In this document: piece after piece, positions 21,989 through 26,423 of the stretch
How positions within the stretch are numbered: the stretch's first letter is position 1
Layout of the letters: every line of letters begins with the position of its first letter
NCBI GenBank assembly: GCA_014728035.1
Contig: WJMJ01000124.1
Location: 1 to 26,423, forward strand
Length of the DNA: 26,423 nucleotides
DNA from: Promethearchaeota archaeon
GTDB lineage: Archaea > Asgardarchaeota > Thorarchaeia > Thorarchaeales > Thorarchaeaceae
Direction of reading: 5' to 3'
Position numbers and translations under genes: made by a program
The notes under the pieces: generated by a model
Databases searched by the model: none
Seen by the model: the letters and a program-made list of their open reading frames with translations, nothing else
What the model was told of the DNA's origin: nothing

Positions 21989-22729
21989 ATGACAAGTGGT
22001 AGAAAGAATTATGCAACGGGATTCCTAGTAGTAATTCTGATTCTTATCATAGTTCCCACAATCATATTTGTTGGTCCTGAACTTGCTCCAGATGCACCAA
22101 AAAGAAATGAATCCATCTCGGGAAGGGGAACAAATCTATATATAGCCAAATTAGAAGCAGGTACTTGGACAGTAACTGTGTCAGCCGATCCTTTTTGGGG
22201 GTTGCATATCGATATTCACATAACAGGCGGAAACGTGCTCGTACCTTTCGTCATTGCAACTGCTGAGAATAGTTACACTGTGAGATTTGATTTGACTCAT
22301 CCCACAGCAGTGCATATAAGAGTAATAGAGAGCTCCACCTATCACGACTCACATGGATTCTATAGCATCAGAATTTCAGGAGGAGATGGCGCTAATCTAC
22401 CATTCCCCATTGTACTCCCATTTTTTTCAATTTTTTTGATAATTCCTTCTTTGTTCTGTATCTCCATAATCATCCTCGCCAAAATAGGTGCTAAAGGGCA
22501 TAAGCATACTTCAGAAACAATACAAAGAACCAGCACATCAACAGAACACGATACAACAACTAGAATTCCCTCACAGATCGATTTCGATTACATGGCACCT
22601 CGATTGCCTTCAAGATGTCCAAATTGTGGAGCTAGTCTATCAGCTATGAATGTTGATTGGATAGGCCCCCTTGAAGCTATTTGCCTACACTGTGAAGCCG
22701 TAGTTAAGGCAAAGTTCGAACATCTCTAA
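21989..22729 (+). CDS. Two-TM membrane protein with a beta-rich loop domain and C-terminal zinc ribbon
   Basis: Hydrophobic segments near the N-terminus and at about aa 140-165; CPNCGA...CLHC. Confidence 0.75.
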   Translation: MTSGRKNYATGFLVVILILIIVPTIIFVGPELAPDAPKRNESISGRGTNLYIAKLEAGTWTVTVSADPFWGLHIDIHITGGNVLVPFVIATAENSYTVRFDLTHPTAVHIRVIESSTYHDSHGFYSIRISGGDGANLPFPIVLPFFSIFLIIPSLFCISIIILAKIGAKGHKHTSETIQRTSTSTEHDTTTRIPSQIDFDYMAPRLPSRCPNCGASLSAMNVDWIGPLEAICLHCEAVVKAKFEHL

Positions 22730-22836
22730 GGACTGTCGATGATACACCATATCTACGCATATCGACATATTCCTGTTGTCTGGAAGGGTACTGGATTCCG
22801 GGTTGGGACTGGAAGATAACTGCATATATCTGGCGA

Positions 22837-23217
22837 GTGGTACGGGTTCCACTAGGAATGAACGGAAAAAGTGCGCTCTGTACAGTCCCAATACAATGGC
22901 CTTGTTCAGTACAGACACTCAAGAATGAACTCAGATATGCCACTCCGTTCGCGAGGTCTCGTAGTCTGAACATCCGGATAAAGAGGTCGATACCAGTCTT
23001 TGCGTTCATTGATGGTGAGAGCTATGGACCATTCAGAAAGAACAGTCGCGCAAAGCTTCCGATACCTGTCGCATTACATCTGATATGGAAAGACCTTGCA
23101 AAGTCCCGTGAAACTGGACCAAAGATAGCTGCCAACTGGTTTGTAAAGGACTGGAAAAGATTTTTTGAGCAGGGAGTATCTAATCCTACCATGCAAAGGG
23201 TAGCAATCAGCTACTGA
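22837..23217 (+). CDS. Protein with a GINS B-domain-like segment; possibly 5'-truncated
   Basis: IRIKRSIPVFAFIDGESYGPFRKNSRAKLPIPVALHLIWKDLA resembles the Gins51 C-terminal B-domain pattern. The frame is open upstream to 22708. Confidence 0.55.
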   Translation: MVRVPLGMNGKSALCTVPIQWPCSVQTLKNELRYATPFARSRSLNIRIKRSIPVFAFIDGESYGPFRKNSRAKLPIPVALHLIWKDLAKSRETGPKIAANWFVKDWKRFFEQGVSNPTMQRVAISY

Positions 23218-23221
23218 AAAC

Positions 23222-23238
23222 TTGGACATTGTTGGACA
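23222..23238 (+). promoter_or_regulatory. Tandem TTGGACA heptamers with 10-bp period upstream of the TATA box (operator/iteron-like)
   Basis: TTGGACA at 23222-23228 and 23232-23238. GTTGGACAA (23231-23239) has an inverted copy TTGTCCAAC at 23365-23373. Confidence 0.4.
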
Positions 23239-23247
23239 AGATCTGAT

Positions 23248-23388
23248 AGGAGTTTATATGGAGTGATCTGGAATAGAGATTTGGTCTACAGACACAGGAG
23301 CCCTGACCAGGACCGAGCCAGTTCCAGTACCGTTTCTGGACGGACAAAGCTCGGGTGTCTAAGTTTGTCCAACTAAAAATGAACGGTA
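23248..23388 (+). repeat. Direct repeat copy 2 (TATA box 23253-23260 + structured leader)
   Basis: 139/141 identical to 1-141; ends 3 nt before GGAGG (23392-23396). Confidence 0.97.
23283..23388 (+). ncRNA. Putative structured leader RNA, copy 2
   Basis: Same five helices as copy 1 (offset +23247). Both inter-copy mismatches fall outside these helices. Confidence 0.45.
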
Positions 23389-23405
23389 ACAGGAGGGATA
23401 GAGGG

Positions 23406-25124
23406 GTGAGTGGAAACTGTCCAGCAGGCAGGTCGTGTAAGGACTGTGTGTATGTTAAGATGTGTGGAGGATGCCTTGGTGATGCCTGCGTTCACATGCG
23501 TACAAGAAAAAGAGGCTCTGCCCACTCCACAGCCAAGTGTCTATTCTGTGAGATGATGAGAATAGATGATACCTGTCTAACACAAAATCCTCCGCCACCG
23601 AAAAAATTCGATCTGATTCCACCTCATGTTCTCGAACAAACCATCGAAGAATGGCAGATTCACATGGATGAGATGACCGAGATGCCAGAGGAACCAGACT
23701 GGCCCCTACTCATACCTGAAGTTTCGAACATCTCTGAAACTACACATAGATTGGGTGTTTGGCCCGATGAGGGGGACTTTGGTATCAAGAAGTTCGACCC
23801 CATCGCTTGGGACATGACCGGGAATCTCTTTGACAAGATACAGCGAATCTGGTGGGTACGAGAGACCGACTCGGACAGACCAGAGGATTGGCACGAAATA
23901 CTTGGTCCTCACGATAACTGGATCAACAACATACTATTCGTTGACCGACTCCCTGACAGACTTGCGATGCAGACCCCACCCTCTGCCCTGATGGTGGCCT
24001 ATCTCAACAGACTCTACGCCTACTACTGGAAGATAGTGTACGATGAGGATGCTCCGAGAATCTGGCTCATGACTCACGGATATCCGAGCTACATAGATTG
24101 GCCCCCAGCATGGCACTGGAACCTTGGTATCAGGATGTTGTGCAGTCTACAGGCATACATCGGGTCACAGGGATGGGACTTCATGGGGACCTACGACCCG
24201 GTATGGTATCCCGACAAGTCACGTAAGACAACACAACCGCTAAGAGTTCCCTTTGTACCCATGAAGGAAGGAGCAAGACTACTCTTCAAACCAGACTCAA
24301 TATCTCACGGACCGACCGAGATGGACTGGTATCCCTTTCCCGGAATCGTACCTTTTGTGCCAGGAGCAGACACGAACCAGCTCTCATGGTTCACCAAACA
24401 CATCGTCCAGATGGGGTATACTACATTAGCGATAGATGCTGTGAACTCTATAGCACACGAGAACTTCCGAGGACTTCGTGAGGCAGTCTCAGCAGTACAC
24501 CGCGCTGGAGCAAAGCATGTCATCATCTACGGACCGTGGCCTCTACATCCTCCGAGGAAGTTCATGCCAATCCGCAATGTATCATACATCCCCACCTCTC
24601 TTCACATGAACATGACCAACAATCCTCGGCGATACTGGCGAAAGAAGGGAGTAAAGACCGAGTACTACCAGAAGACACCAAACCACCGTATAACCTCACT
24701 CCCAGAGGTAGTAGTTCGAGAAGATCTGGAGATATGCGATTGCCCAGCCTGCAAAGCCGGGGAGACCAAAGAGGTGGACCCGCGCTCGATATGGCGATGG
24801 TGGCATATGCTCTTTGCAGCGGTCAAATGGGAGAAACGAGTAAAGAAGAAATTAGCCCAAGGTGATGTACTTGAACCCACCTTTGATAACACCCGACTCT
24901 GGTATCAGGGACCATCATACACGGTCTTTCGTAAGTGTCTGCACTATCCGCCGGAGTATCAGTGGGAGAAGATACCAGCTATCCTCGAAACCCTAGTCTT
25001 CAATGACACGAAGATGGAGATTCAATTCCCAGATGGCGAAACCGCATTGATTGAAAAGATACGGTGGACGGATTGGGACGAGGGACACACCTGGTGGTAC
25101 AAGTTTCCCAAGTTGGAGGAGTGA
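23406..25124 (+). CDS. Cys-rich DUF4417-like / tRNA-guanine transglycosylase-like TIM-barrel protein
   Basis: N-terminal Cys cluster (CKDC..CGGC..C..CLFC); THGYPSYIDWPPAWHWNLGIRM resembles the DUF4417 PDFSLYxDxP..WNxYR motif; C-terminal CDCPAC-x17-H resembles the TGT Zn site. GTG 23406 follows GGAGG; the longest ORF starts at 23355. Confidence 0.6.
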   Translation: MSGNCPAGRSCKDCVYVKMCGGCLGDACVHMRTRKRGSAHSTAKCLFCEMMRIDDTCLTQNPPPPKKFDLIPPHVLEQTIEEWQIHMDEMTEMPEEPDWPLLIPEVSNISETTHRLGVWPDEGDFGIKKFDPIAWDMTGNLFDKIQRIWWVRETDSDRPEDWHEILGPHDNWINNILFVDRLPDRLAMQTPPSALMVAYLNRLYAYYWKIVYDEDAPRIWLMTHGYPSYIDWPPAWHWNLGIRMLCSLQAYIGSQGWDFMGTYDPVWYPDKSRKTTQPLRVPFVPMKEGARLLFKPDSISHGPTEMDWYPFPGIVPFVPGADTNQLSWFTKHIVQMGYTTLAIDAVNSIAHENFRGLREAVSAVHRAGAKHVIIYGPWPLHPPRKFMPIRNVSYIPTSLHMNMTNNPRRYWRKKGVKTEYYQKTPNHRITSLPEVVVREDLEICDCPACKAGETKEVDPRSIWRWWHMLFAAVKWEKRVKKKLAQGDVLEPTFDNTRLWYQGPSYTVFRKCLHYPPEYQWEKIPAILETLVFNDTKMEIQFPDGETALIEKIRWTDWDEGHTWWYKFPKLEE

Positions 25125-25127
25125 AAC

Positions 25128-26129
25128 GTGACGGGTGGTAGCGGCTTAGATCCTTACTATGACAAGGATCCACCCAAGCTGAGTAAGAACAATGGTGAGT
25201 CGAAGCCAGAACGGGAGATCTATGAAGAGACAGAGGACATGATTCCCAAGACCTACAAGGATTCGGTCAGGCCAAAAAGGATAGAAATCGTCCCCTCAGA
25301 TAGTCCGTATCACAAAACGAAGAAGGTATACTCCTATGACTGTGAGCACTGCGGGACAGAGATTGTCACAAGTACACGGAAGAAACACAAGCATGCTTTA
25401 TGTGATAAAGACTGTCAATTCGAGTGGCAGAAGTATGGAAAGCCACCATCTAAACTTTCACCGGAGGGGAGAAAGAGTCTATCAAGAAAGACCAGAGAGA
25501 GATGGGAAGACCCTGAACATAGGGCAAAACGATTGAAAGCACATGTCAAAGCAGTGAAGTCTCCGGAATATCGTGCAAAGATGTCCAGAATACAAAAAGA
25601 AGTTTCCAGTCGTCCTGAATGGAAAGAGAAACAATCCAGAGCTCACAAAGGAAAGAAACGTCCTCCCGAGGTAGGTAGAAAAGTATCAGCCGCAAAGATG
25701 GGACATCCTGTATCTGAAGAAACACGAAGAAAACTATCAGAGGCTATGAGTGGGGATAAACATCCACAATGGAAAGGCGGCATAAGCTCTAAGACTTAAA
25801 GATTCTATCGTAGTAAAGAGTGGCGATAATAGAGAGAACGATGTAGGAAGAGAGATAACTATTCATGTCAGGCATGTGGCTGGACAGAAGAGGAATTAGG
25901 AGAATCACTTTATGGTCATCACATCGAACCATTGCGGGTCACCAAACACAAGTGAACGGTTTATCCTGATGAGCTGGTAGCCAGTCTATGCAGTGTGTGT
26001 CATGCGCCAACAGAGGCCCAAGAAGGCGATATGAAATATCCAATAAATGGAAGAGGAGAAGAAGCAAAACCAGAGAGGCTCAAAGAACCGCGATACGGTC
26101 AGAGCTCTCTGGATGAGTTATTCGATTAG
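25128..26129 (+). pseudogene. Zn-finger + NUMOD3 + HNH homing-type endonuclease interrupted by four in-frame stops
   Basis: ORF 25128-25799 (CEHCG..CDKDC; NUMOD3-like SEETRRKLSEA; HPQWKGG) continues in frame as RFYRSKEWR**RERCRKRDNYSCQACG...GHHIEP...*...LCSVCH...QSSLDELFD*. Stops at 25797, 25827, 25830 and 25953. Confidence 0.88.
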
Positions 26130-26423
26130 ACACCGTATCTATGTCTGTCAAGGAACTCCTGTTTTTTGGAGGGGTTCCAGGATTGGACGCCCTGGACGTA
26201 CCCCGTTACTCGGCTGAATACCTCCACACCAACATATCCGCACCGCGGACAGGTTATTCGAGTGAGGTCCTCGATGGAGTCAAACTTGGTGGTGCGCCAG
26301 TCGATGCCGGCCTGATAGGAGCAGGAGGGGCACTGCATAACGTCTTTAGTGAAGCTGAAGTAGGAATTAAGAGTGTCCTTGGCGATTTTCTTGGTAAGGG
26401 CCCAAAGAGCGTCGGGGTCAGGG
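26126..26423 (-). CDS. nrdD: Anaerobic (class III) ribonucleoside-triphosphate reductase, C-terminal part; 5' end outside the window
   Basis: Frame open to the window edge: PDPDALWALTKKIA..YFSFTKD..CPSC...CPRCG..EVFSRVTGY..WNPSKKQEFLDR (Zn site and glycyl-radical motif). Confidence 0.92.
   Translation of the reverse strand, partial: PDPDALWALTKKIAKDTLNSYFSFTKDVMQCPSCSYQAGIDWRTTKFDSIEDLTRITCPRCGYVGVEVFSRVTGYVQGVQSWNPSKKQEFLDRHRYGV

What the first reader, a model, noticed from the sequence alone, without database searches (positions are those of the whole stretch)
23406..25124. Divergent TGT/DUF4417-like enzyme with Cys clusters: candidate new nucleic-acid base-modification protein under a structured leader
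Seen: an N-terminal cluster of 9 Cys, a DUF4417-like core motif, later barrel-like strands (GIVPFVPG, TLAID, HVIIYG), and CDCPAC...H. Known: TGT and DpdA base-exchange enzymes use a TIM barrel plus a CxCxxC..H Zn site, and DpdA inserts 7-deazaguanines into viral or island DNA. Inference: a highly diverged base-exchange or modification enzyme on an element with nucleotide-supply (nrdD) and nuclease genes. Its pseudoknotted leader ends 3 nt before the SD, which raises a riboswitch-like possibility. I cannot confirm the TGT catalytic Asp residues, and no que/fol genes are in the window.
Basis: partly seen in the sequence, partly recalled or inferred. Interest (0 to 1): 0.75.

Follow-up and report, generated by a model that had tools for sequence, protein, structure and literature searches.

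The report
Primase-linked TGT-fold protein, degraded copy
The gene encodes a real, previously undescribed Asgard (Thorarchaeota) protein with the fold and zinc site of the tRNA/DNA base-swapping enzymes but without their catalytic aspartate; it travels in a small mobile cassette with a primase and a homing nuclease, and its supposed riboswitch leader is a 190-base repeat found dozens of times in the genome.

Summary
The ORF 23406-25124 encodes 572 aa with 9 Cys in the first 57 residues and an invariant CxCxxC...H site.

The TGT fold call is right. The AlphaFold2 model (pTM 0.90) matches ArcTGT best (Z 13.8), then TGT, DpdA and QTRT2. Chained profile comparisons give E 1.6e-22 and 2.1e-16.

- **Base exchange.** The Asp nucleophile position is Ile395 (29 of 31 members). 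The base-recognition Asp is His224. No family member hits Pfam TGT or DUF4417. A true DpdA lies elsewhere in the genome.
- **Leader.** 23198-23387 is a 190-nt dispersed repeat with at least 41 matches in the genome. It is absent from homologous loci, folds no better than shuffles, and has no Rfam hit.
- **nrdD on an element.** nrdD is chromosomal.

The family is confined to one Thorarchaeota family (9 of 301 Asgard genomes searched). It sits in a four-gene cassette: small protein, PriS-like primase, this protein, then an HNH nuclease. A same-genus genome has the empty site.

The window copy is a relic. Its primase lacks the 5' half, its HNH gene has four stop codons, and the protein carries D402N.

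The function is inferred: a remodelled nucleic-acid enzyme, or a primase partner. The scan flagged this family once before, on another genome.

The parts
22729..23197 (+). 3' remnant of the cassette's PriS-like AEP primase gene. It matches only residues 164-322 of the 326-aa homologue. The catalytic DxD and SGxRGxH motifs are lost. The ORF called at 22837-23217 takes its last codons and its stop from the repeat.
   Evidence: tblastn of P0068 and P0095 against the window; alignment A2; NCBIfam PriS hit on the intact homologue; the left edge coincides with the insertion edge against G001.
23198..23387 (.). 190-nt dispersed (MITE-like) repeat.
   Evidence: At least 41 matches in G000 at up to 99% identity, many at contig ends. 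Sharp boundaries in alignment A5. About 20 copies in G001. Fold z-score 0.18. No Rfam match. In intact loci the primase and target genes overlap by 4 nt.
23406..25124 (+). Gene for the 572-aa Cys-rich TGT-fold protein (P0002). An SD-like AGGAGG lies at 23391-23396.
23418..23576 (+). N-terminal Cys cluster, residues 5-57: 9 Cys plus His30. It offers about eight conserved ligands, enough for two metal sites (Zn and/or Fe-S).
   Evidence: Alignment A1 and column counts. The same module occurs in the distant relatives P0062, P0065, P0066 and P0067.
23679..24881 (+). TGT-like (beta/alpha)8 barrel, residues about 92-492, with an insertion at about residues 234-310.
   Evidence: Model m5255cc64a51f. 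VIA-align Z 13.8 to 1iq8_A over model residues 92-492.
24588..24590 (+). Codon for Ile395, the position aligned with the TGT/ArcTGT/DpdA Asp nucleophile.
   Evidence: Transitive hhalign map at confidence 9 of 9. Ile in 29 of 31 and Val in 2 of 31 sequences.
24609..24611 (+). AAC codon for Asn402, where 29 of 31 family members have Asp. It is one of 9 departures of the window protein at conserved sites.
24735..24806 (+). Zinc-site motif C444-x-C446-x2-C449-x17-H467.
   Evidence: Invariant in 31 of 31 sequences. Aligned to the ArcTGT zinc ligands.
25128..26123 (+). NUMOD3 + HNH homing-endonuclease gene of the cassette. Here it is a pseudogene with four in-frame stops (TAA 25797, TAA 25827, TAG 25830, TGA 25953) and no frameshift.
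   Evidence: Pfam NUMOD3. tblastn with the L003 and L010 HNH proteins covers 25128-26120 in one frame. Sequence read.
26126..26423 (-). 3' end of the chromosomal nrdD gene. It is the host flank, not part of the cassette.
   Evidence: Pfam NRDD 2.1e-20. 81% identical to G001 at the empty site.
1..141 (.). A second, partial copy of the 190-nt repeat at the start of the contig.

Best explanation
Window 23406-25124 encodes a member of an undescribed, Thorarchaeota-restricted protein family.

**Architecture.** An N-terminal Cys-rich metal-binding module of about 60 aa is followed by a TIM barrel descended from the archaeal tRNA-guanine transglycosylase (ArcTGT) catalytic domain. The structural CxCxxC...H zinc site is intact.

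**Active site.** It is rebuilt. The covalent Asp nucleophile is Ile. The guanine-reading Asp is His. A new set of invariant polar residues sits at the C-terminal ends of the barrel strands: E105, D136, D180, D184, H237, N239, N347 and E352 (all 31 of 31), with H224 and D344 in 30 of 31.

**Cassette.** In intact loci the gene is translationally coupled (4-nt overlap) to an upstream PriS-like archaeo-eukaryotic primase whose catalytic motifs are invariant. A small protein of about 95 aa precedes the primase, and a NUMOD3- or HTH-type HNH endonuclease follows the target. Together they form a patchy, mobile four-gene cassette of about 4.2 kb (in L004) that often lies beside nrdD.

**Mechanism (inferred, about 0.4).** The protein keeps the TGT way of gripping a nucleic acid and holding a flipped-out base in the barrel pocket. 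It carries out chemistry other than Asp-mediated base exchange, either modifying or hydrolytically removing a non-guanine base. It acts with the primase on DNA of the element or at its homing site. The HNH nuclease provides mobility.

**This copy (shown).** The window copy is a decaying relic. The left part of the cassette is deleted up to primase residue 164. A 190-nt dispersed repeat has been inserted between the primase remnant and the gene. The HNH gene has four stop codons. The protein departs from the family at 9 of 144 conserved sites, including D402N and G466W.
For: **Fold.** The model has pLDDT 84.7 and pTM 0.90. VIA-align against 48,161 chains ranks ArcTGT 1iq8 at Z 13.8, TGT at 10.8, DpdA at 10.4, QTRT2 at 10.4 and Cap10 at 10.2. 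Generic barrels score 10.2 or less.

**Homology.**
- hmmsearch of the family profile over 1.84 billion proteins finds only this family plus three distant proteins.
- hhalign of the family against those relatives gives E 1.6e-22 over 340 columns, N-terminal Cys module included.
- hhalign of the relatives against ArcTGT+DpdA gives E 2.1e-16 over 279 columns.

**Residue map**.
- Zn ligands are kept in 31 of 31 sequences.
- Nucleophile Asp maps to I395.
- Base-recognition Asp maps to H224.

**Partner.**
- The upstream protein hits NCBIfam PriS at 5.8e-10. It has an invariant [DE]xD, SGxRGxH and D..R..R motif set.
- Its 39 clusters share contigs and adjacent locus tags with the target family.
- Gene order is conserved in L003, L004, L010 and L012; L011, cut at the target's start, keeps target then HNH.

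**Mobility.**
- The family is found in 9 of 301 Asgard genomes, all in one family, and not in the same-genus G001.
- The empty site in G001 is 330 bp against 3.3 kb in the window.
- GC is 0.48-0.51 inside against about 0.39 outside.

**Relic state.**. The repeat is shown.
Against: - No biochemical data exist for any member.
- The map for the general acid/base Asp has low confidence. Invariant D180 lies at the end of a barrel strand (beta-3 if the eight modelled strands are numbered in order) and could play that role.
- Nearly invariant D402, or D/N405, might reach the pocket and act as an alternative nucleophile.
- The direct profile comparison of the family against TGT is weak (E 1.5e-4, probability 51%).
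- The substrate (DNA, RNA, nucleotide or protein) is unknown.
- The cassette has no recognisable integrase, so its mode of mobility is itself inferred.
- Distant relatives in Brockarchaeota and Thermoproteota lack a neighbouring primase. The primase link may therefore be specific to the Thorarchaeota branch.
Confidence: 0.6

Rival explanations
1. Non-catalytic partner of the primase. The TGT-fold protein is a pseudo-enzyme, as QTRT2 is to QTRT1. It serves as the large, metal-cluster-bearing, template- or nucleotide-binding subunit of the PriS-like primase, a functional analogue of PriL.
For: - The nucleophile Asp is lost.
- QTRT2 is among the top structural matches.
- The primase and target genes overlap by 4 nt and co-occur strictly.
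- The PriS-like protein has no PriL-like or helicase partner in the cassette.
- The N-terminal Cys cluster could hold an Fe-S cluster, as PriL does. This is inference from general knowledge.
Against: - Invariant or near-invariant residues, mostly polar or charged, follow all eight barrel strands (E105, D136, D180/D184, H224, P319/G320, D344/N347/E352, G376, Y394). This looks like a working pocket rather than a relaxed one.
- The distant relatives share the same architecture but have no primase next to them.
Confidence: 0.25
2. The protein is a highly diverged DpdA/TGT-type base-exchange enzyme that inserts a 7-deazaguanine (or another base) into DNA of a mobile element.
For: - TGT-superfamily fold and intact Zn site.
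- DpdA is among the structural matches at Z 10.4.
- The gene is on a mobile cassette with a nuclease.
- The host genome encodes ArcTGT and a true DpdA, so preQ0 is probably available.
- D402 (29 of 31) and D180 (31 of 31) are conserved acidic residues near the pocket in sequence.
Against: - The three Asp that are invariant in TGT and DpdA (PMC10164549), and kept even in Cap10 (bioRxiv 10.1101/2025.04.06.647259), map here to N175 (low confidence), H224 and I395 (high confidence).
- The family has no hit to the DpdA models of PADLOC or NCBIfam, or to Pfam TGT.
- hhalign of the family against DpdA gives E 0.075.
- There is no deazaguanine-synthesis gene in any of the cassettes read.
Confidence: 0.1
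3. A radical-SAM-like enzyme. The N-terminal CX3CX2C (C7-x3-C11-x2-C14 in most members; CGKSCSNC in the relatives) would bind a [4Fe-4S] cluster that drives radical chemistry in the barrel.
For: - CX3CX2C spacing is present in 16 of 26 sequences that cover the N-terminus, and in relatives P0065, P0066 and P0067.
- The Atlas structure search lists HydG, HemW and coproporphyrinogen-oxidase-like radical SAM proteins at TM 0.30-0.34 by the query.
Against: - The window protein and 9 others lack C7.
- There is no Pfam Radical_SAM, Fer4 or SPASM hit at E<=10.
- The barrel is demonstrably TGT-derived.
- No radical SAM protein is in the top 50 PDB structural matches.
- The Cys module lies outside the barrel, not in the loop after the first barrel strand.
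Confidence: 0.05

Closest known systems
Archaeosine tRNA-guanine transglycosylase (ArcTGT/TgtA), catalytic domain (PDB 1IQ8)
   Same: - Best structural match: Z 13.8, 275 residues aligned.
- Closest by profile comparison through the distant relatives, E 2.1e-16.
- (beta/alpha)8 barrel with the CxCxxC...H zinc site in the same place.
   Different: - No Asp nucleophile (Ile395), no base-recognition Asp (His224) and no DSGxF motif.
- No C1, C2 or PUA tRNA-binding domains.
- An added N-terminal Cys-rich module, an insertion of about 75 residues after beta-4, and a C-terminal extension of about 80 residues.
- Encoded on a mobile cassette with a primase, rather than as a housekeeping gene. The genome has its own ArcTGT on contig C44.
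DpdA, the DNA preQ0 insertase (PDB 7UI4; PMC10164549)
   Same: TGT-superfamily barrel, Z 10.4. Both are associated with mobile or defence-type DNA contexts.
   Different: - DpdA keeps Asp95, Asp130 and Asp256, which are needed for exchange. This family does not.
- The family has no hit to the DpdA models.
- A bona fide DpdA is encoded elsewhere in the same genome (NCBIfam 5e-127).
QTRT2, the non-catalytic subunit of eukaryotic TGT (PDB 6FV5)
   Same: TGT fold, Z 10.4. It is a precedent for a family member that, to my knowledge, keeps the Zn site while acting as a partner subunit rather than a catalyst.
   Different: QTRT2 pairs with a catalytic TGT paralogue. Here the coupled partner is an AEP primase. 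The pocket residues of this family are strictly conserved.
Cap10 of type IV CBASS (PDB 9NTN; bioRxiv 10.1101/2025.04.06.647259)
   Same: A TGT-fold enzyme put to a new use outside tRNA modification, Z 10.2.
   Different: Cap10 retains the catalytic Asp248 and the base-reading Asp residues. It works with a QueC-like Cap9 and a CD-NTase, and none of these is present in this cassette.
Unnamed archaeal proteins of about 360-440 aa (P0062, P0065, P0066, P0067; Brockarchaeota and Thermoproteota loci L075 and L076)
   Same: They share the N-terminal Cys module, the TGT-like barrel and the CxCxxC..HNL site. By the profile alignment they also lack the Asp nucleophile, with Ser or Ala in its place. One is followed by a LAGLIDADG endonuclease.
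   Different: They are shorter: no insertion of about 75 residues and no C-terminal extension. They keep the base-recognition Asp. No primase is adjacent.

Membership tests
TGT superfamily (fold level) | (beta/alpha)8 barrel most similar to TGT, ArcTGT and DpdA | tested here: met
   The top four of 48,161 chains are ArcTGT (Z 13.8), TGT (10.8), DpdA (10.4) and QTRT2 (10.4). Chained hhalign gives E 1.6e-22 and 2.1e-16.
TGT superfamily (fold level) | Structural zinc site CxCxxC...H after the last barrel strand | tested here: met
   C444, C446, C449 and H467 are invariant in 31 of 31 sequences. They align to the ArcTGT ligands.
Catalytic transglycosylases (TGT/ArcTGT/DpdA) | Asp nucleophile at the end of beta-8 (ArcTGT D249, TGT D280, DpdA D256) | tested here: not met
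   It maps to Ile395 at hhalign confidence 9 in both steps. The position is Ile in 29 of 31 and Val in 2 of 31 sequences. This rests on sequence-profile mapping; no 3D superposition was possible.
Catalytic transglycosylases (TGT/ArcTGT/DpdA) | Asp that reads the Watson-Crick edge of guanine or 7-deazaguanine (ArcTGT and DpdA D130, TGT D156) | tested here: not met
   It maps to His224 at confidence 7 and 5. The position is His in 30 of 31 sequences. The distant relatives keep Asp here.
Catalytic transglycosylases (TGT/ArcTGT/DpdA) | General acid/base Asp in the DSGG(F) motif (D95/D102) | tested here: inconclusive
   It maps to N175 at low confidence (2 and 3), across a gap where the SGxF residues are deleted. 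Position 175 is N in 17 and D in 11 sequences. Invariant D180 follows the modelled strand 175-179.
Pfam TGT (PF01702) | Match to the family HMM at the gathering score | tested here: not met
   0 of 31 members hit at E<=10. Only the distant relatives P0065 and the L075 protein give sub-threshold hits, at E 0.016 and 0.036.
Pfam DUF4417 (PF14386) | Match to the family HMM | tested here: not met
   0 of 31 members hit at E<=10. The only trace is relative P0066 at E 0.054, 13.4 bits against a cut-off of 28.9.
DpdA | Match to the curated DpdA models (NCBIfam NF041059, PADLOC DpdA) | tested here: not met
   The target has no hit. The same models score a different gene of this genome at 5e-127 and 3e-117.
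Riboswitch or structured cis-regulatory leader | Stability above background, conservation upstream of orthologues, or a match to a known RNA family | tested here: not met
   Fold z-score 0.18. No Rfam hit at E<=1. Orthologous loci have a 4-nt gene overlap (L004, L010, L012) or a 47-nt gap (L003) instead. The stretch is a 190-nt repeat with at least 41 matches in the genome.
Archaeo-eukaryotic primase (the neighbour gene, PriS-like) | Catalytic motifs I ([DE]xD), II (SGxGxH) and III (hD...R) | tested here: met
   They are invariant in 33 homologues. NCBIfam PriS scores 5.8e-10. In the window only the C-terminal half survives, with motif III and without motifs I and II.

The most novel reading that the evidence does not exclude
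The intact cassette encodes a new kind of primase-coupled DNA base-processing machine. A metal-cluster-bearing TGT-fold enzyme has swapped its Asp nucleophile for a different catalytic set. It flips out and modifies or excises a non-guanine (or modified) base in DNA, working with a dedicated AEP primase and an HNH nuclease. The purpose would be either to mark or protect the element's DNA or to attack foreign modified DNA. This would be a chemistry and a partnership not known for the TGT superfamily.
Probability: 0.2. Interest if true: 0.8.

Novelty: new variant of a known kind. Interest (0 to 1): 0.55.

Why it matters
All characterised active members of the TGT superfamily that I compared keep the same Asp-based pocket. 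These are tRNA TGT, ArcTGT, DpdA and Cap10.

This is a well-conserved branch, so far seen only in Asgard archaea. It keeps the barrel and the zinc site but has replaced the nucleophile and the guanine-reading residue. It has gained a Cys-rich metal module and is hard-wired to an archaeo-eukaryotic primase on a mobile cassette.

If it is catalytic, it extends the chemistry of the fold. If it is a primase subunit, it is a new solution to the PriL role. Either outcome bears on Asgard mobile elements and DNA replication, both of which are poorly known.

For annotation, the work shows three things. The gene should not be named DpdA or TGT. The 'leader' is a high-copy repeat that also breaks the assembly. 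The window holds a decayed copy, so experiments should use intact loci such as L012 or L004.

Tried and rejected
- **Direct sequence searches found nothing useful.** Pfam, PHROGs, PADLOC, NCBIfam and PDB sequences gave no real hit. The PET-hydrolase rows are chance, at E about 1.
- **Foldseek.** The PDB search gave no hit at E<=1e-3; ArcTGT appeared only at probability 0.99 with TM 0.33. Foldseek against BFVD was weak, with TGT- and DpdA-like phage proteins among the top rows.
- **Direct hhalign** of the family against a single ArcTGT sequence, or against ArcTGT/DpdA/ArcS alignments, was not significant. Homology became significant only through the four distant relatives.
- **Global hhalign mode** failed.
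- **Complex prediction** of the L012 primase with its TGT-fold partner returned 'no answer' (runs 0.69, 0.00, 0.00). It is not used as evidence either way.
- **Folding the C-terminal 83 residues alone** gave pLDDT 64. That is too poor to search, so the C-terminal extension remains unassigned.
- **Atlas search of the N-terminal 95 residues** gave no usable hit.
- **IMG/VR scan** with the family alignment found no relative, so there is no support for a viral origin.
- **No integrase or transposase** was found in the flanks of L012, which hold LRR proteins and ORFans. The 109-nt (L012) and 170-nt (L004) direct repeats are noted but not explained.
- **No tRNA gene** is in the window.
- **No sigma-70-like promoter or terminator** is near the start. 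That scan is of little meaning in an archaeon.
Full report
**1. The observation.**

The ORF is real. The frame opens at 23355, but the homologues begin four or five residues before the first Cys. The start is therefore GTG 23406 (MSGNCPAGR...), preceded by AGGAGG at 23391-23396.

The product, P0002 (572 aa), has nine Cys at residues 5, 11, 14, 20, 23, 28, 45, 48 and 57. C444-x-C446-x2-C449-x17-H467 is invariant in 31 of 31 aligned homologues.

Direct database searches are empty. There was no Pfam family even at E<=10, no PDB sequence hit, and nothing real in PHROGs, PADLOC or NCBIfam. All 31 family members were scanned against Pfam at E<=10, and none touches TGT or DUF4417. The 'DUF4417-like motif' is therefore not supported as a sequence match.

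**2. The family.**

A search of 5.8 billion proteins found 53 relatives at 44-67% identity. Most are about 560-575 aa, the rest truncated or partial. All are 'hypothetical', and nearly all come from Candidatus Thorarchaeota MAGs.

An exhaustive profile search of 1.84 billion cluster representatives found only this family, its fragments, and three distant proteins: P0062, P0065 and P0066.

Among 301 Asgard genomes sampled, the gene is in 9. All 9 belong to one taxonomic family (8 of 76 there, besides the window's own genome). Its presence is patchy across genera, and it is missing from the same-genus genome G001. It was not found in IMG/VR viral contigs.

**3. Fold and homology.**

With the 31-sequence alignment, AlphaFold2 gives pLDDT 84.7 and pTM 0.90. 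The model shows eight parallel strands at residues 100-104, 133-136, 175-179, 218-222, 313-315, 340-344, 371-376 and 392-396.

Foldseek is weak. VIA-align against 48,161 PDB representatives gives this order:

| Match | PDB | Z |
|---|---|---|
| ArcTGT | 1iq8 | 13.8 (275 aligned, model 92-492) |
| Bacterial TGT | 3unt | 10.8 |
| DpdA | 7ui4 | 10.4 |
| QTRT2 | 6fv5 | 10.4 |
| Cap10 | 9ntn | 10.2 |
| Generic TIM barrels | various | 10.2 or less |

Sequence evidence agrees once an intermediate is used:
- The family profile against the four distant relatives gives hhalign probability 99.5% and E 1.6e-22 over 340 columns. This span includes the N-terminal Cys module and the zinc site.
- Those relatives against an alignment of Thorarchaeota ArcTGT and DpdA sequences give 98.7% and E 2.1e-16 over 279 columns.
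- ArcS and DpdA alone score much worse.

So the barrel descends from an ArcTGT-like catalytic domain.

**4. It is not a canonical transglycosylase.**

[quoted passage not shown] These are the general acid/base D95, the base-reading D130 and the nucleophile D256, and D95A and D256A abolish exchange (PMC10164549). Cap10 keeps the equivalent set.

Carrying ArcTGT positions through the two significant alignments gives the map below:

| ArcTGT feature | Position in P0002 | Alignment confidence | Residue in the family |
|---|---|---|---|
| Zn ligands | C444, C446, C449, H467 | 9 for the Cys | 31 of 31 kept |
| Nucleophile Asp | Ile395 | 9 and 9 | Ile 29, Val 2 |
| Preceding Asp of DFFD | Val392 | 9 and 9 | V/I/L |
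| Base-reading Asp | His224 | 7 and 5 | His 30 of 31 |
| General acid/base Asp | Asn175 | 2 and 3, across a deletion of the SGxF residues | N 17, D 11 |

Invariant D180 directly follows the modelled strand 175-179 and could take over the acid/base role. D402 (29 of 31) and D/N405 lie in the short helix after the last strand.

The merged-profile alignment that pairs N405 with the nucleophile misplaces strand 7, so I do not trust it.

In place of the TGT set, the family has invariant or near-invariant residues, mostly polar or charged, behind every strand. These include E105/S107, D136/D143, D180/R181/D184, H224/S228/Y229/H237/N239/R243, P319/G320/Q325, D344/N347/H351/E352 and R409. That pattern indicates a working pocket with a different make-up.

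I could not inspect the geometry, because model coordinates are not exposed to scripts.

**5. The surroundings.**

Intact loci share a conserved order: a small protein of about 90-105 aa, a protein of about 326 aa, the target, then an endonuclease of about 270-415 aa.

- **The 326-aa protein is a PriS-like archaeo-eukaryotic primase.**
  - It hits NCBIfam PriS at 5.8e-10 and has a faint precomputed Pfam DNA_primase_S hit.
  - The motifs [DE]xD, SGxRGxH and D..R..RxP.S.H are invariant in 33 homologues.
  - Its 39 clusters are all Thorarchaeota and lie on the same contigs as the target family, with adjacent locus tags.
  - In L004, L010 and L012 its stop overlaps the target's start by 4 nt.
- **The small protein** is fused to the primase in P0076.
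- **The endonucleases** share an N-terminal MSGGS..DPYYQRDPPK motif and a C-terminal HNH domain. Their DNA-binding middles differ, being either NUMOD3 or HTH.

The cassette lies beside nrdD-thioredoxin-thyA in the window and in L002, L003, L009 and L010. It lies elsewhere in L004, L011 and L012. In L004 the whole unit is bracketed by a 170-nt direct repeat 4,225 nt apart.

**6. The window copy is a relic.**

G001 is a same-genus genome without the gene. It matches the window up to 22732 (the end of the 246-aa membrane/zinc-ribbon gene) and again from 26063 (the nrdD 3' end). Only 330 bp lie between these points in G001, against 3.3 kb in the window. So 22733-26062 is an insertion and nrdD is host DNA. 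The raised GC of 0.48-0.51 inside the insertion fits a foreign origin.

Inside the insertion:
- The primase survives only as residues 164-322 (22729-23211), without motifs I and II.
- The HNH gene (25128-26123) keeps its frame but has stops at 25797, 25827, 25830 and 25953.
- The target ORF is intact but departs from the family at 9 of 144 highly conserved sites. That is the third highest count of 31 sequences. The departures include D402N (AAC at 24609-24611) and G466W, next to the zinc His.

**7. The 'leader'.**

The stretch 23218-23410 folds at -48 kcal/mol, against -48.7 +/- 3.8 for shuffles (z 0.18). It has no Rfam match.

Positions 23198-23387 recur at least 41 times in this genome at up to 99% identity. 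Many copies sit at contig ends, including positions 1-141 of this window. About 20 further copies at 70-79% identity occur in G001.

An alignment of copies shows sharp boundaries. The left edge lies inside the end of the primase remnant.

Orthologous loci have no such spacer. It is a MITE-like repeat insertion, not a riboswitch.

**8. What it most likely does.**

Shown:
- It has the TGT-superfamily fold and zinc site.
- The canonical nucleophile is lost.
- It is strictly coupled to an AEP primase and an HNH nuclease in a patchy, insertable cassette.

Inferred (about 0.4): the protein still uses the TGT way of docking a nucleic acid and receiving a flipped-out base. It performs different chemistry on a base that is not read like guanine. 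It acts with the primase on element or target-site DNA, and the HNH enzyme provides homing.

Rivals, with my confidence in each:
- A non-catalytic, PriL-like or QTRT2-like primase subunit (0.25).
- True base exchange with relocated catalytic residues (0.1).
- Radical-SAM-like chemistry from the CX3CX2C spacing (0.05). That spacing is not conserved in the window protein.

The complex prediction for primase plus partner gave no verdict. It is not used as evidence.

**9. Comparison and novelty.**

The closest known family is ArcTGT. Membership of the fold superfamily is met. Membership of the catalytic TGT/DpdA family fails on two of three defining Asp residues. Membership of Pfam TGT, Pfam DUF4417 and the DpdA models fails outright. 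The genome carries a genuine ArcTGT, a genuine DpdA and another orphan TGT-like gene elsewhere.

I found no paper describing a TGT-like protein coupled to an AEP primase. That is a limited library search, not proof of absence.

I rate the family a new variant of a known kind. It is of moderate to good interest as a family, but this particular copy is degraded and should not be the one studied. The scan had already flagged this family once on another genome (note e1-5611823), where the gene carries two in-frame TAG codons. I saw the same thing in G177 and in the 440-aa call in L009.

Noticed in passing
window 23198-23387 and 1-141; G000 contigs C121, C163, C141, C83 and others: A 190-nt dispersed repeat with at least 41 matches in this genome at up to 99% identity. 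Many copies lie at contig ends, so it probably breaks the assembly. About 20 diverged copies are in the same-genus genome G001. It has no Rfam family and no coding capacity, and it looks like a recently active MITE.
   Followed up: partly
window 25128-26123: The NUMOD3-HNH homing-endonuclease gene keeps one reading frame over 996 nt but has four nonsense codons, all clustered in the HNH half. This pattern of inactivation, without any indel, is odd.
   Followed up: partly
G177:C17:869-2578 (L043) and L009:1262-2584: Other copies of the target gene carry two in-frame TAG codons, or are called as a 440-aa N-terminally shortened ORF. So decayed copies, or conceivably recoded ones, recur in Thorarchaeota.
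   Followed up: no
L004:8212-8381 and 12437-12606: A 170-nt direct repeat (96% identical, 4,225 nt apart) brackets the whole four-gene cassette. The right copy covers the last 30 codons of the HNH gene, and the left copy is an orphan HNH tail. This may be a footprint of how the cassette inserts or duplicates.
   Followed up: partly
L012:9708-10703, L004:11702-12526, L003:2756-3715, L011:1743-2993, L010:14771-15718, window 25128-25799: All cassette endonucleases begin with the same motif, MSGGS..DPYYQRDPPK, although their DNA-binding middles differ (NUMOD3 or HTH). It may be a docking peptide for a cassette partner.
   Followed up: no
P0076 (452 aa, Thorarchaeota MAG): The small upstream cassette protein and the PriS-like primase are fused into one polypeptide, or read through, in one genome. 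This links the small protein to the primase.
   Followed up: partly
G000:C25:141993-142532 (L006) and G000:C84:49387-50046 (L007): The same genome encodes a bona fide DpdA (NCBIfam 5e-127) and a further orphan TGT-like protein of 376 aa with a CDCKGC...H site. With ArcTGT and the target, that makes four TGT-superfamily paralogues.
   Followed up: partly
L053:723-2695: The distant relative P0066 (360 aa, same Cys module and barrel) is immediately followed, with overlap, by a LAGLIDADG endonuclease gene. This is a second, independent pairing of this protein type with a homing-type nuclease.
   Followed up: no
L075:4746-5720 and L004:5447-6439: An AIR-synthase-related (PurM/HypE/ThiL-like) gene lies next to the Brockarchaeota relative. 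One also lies about 2.3 kb upstream of the first cassette gene in L004, there beside a 568-aa radical SAM gene. With only two cases, this may be coincidence.
   Followed up: no
L002:14339-14962, L003:7023-7646, L009:8375-8998: A short (207 aa) thymidylate-synthase-family gene sits next to nrdD and a thioredoxin-like gene in several Thorarchaeota. Its length is unusual for ThyA.
   Followed up: no
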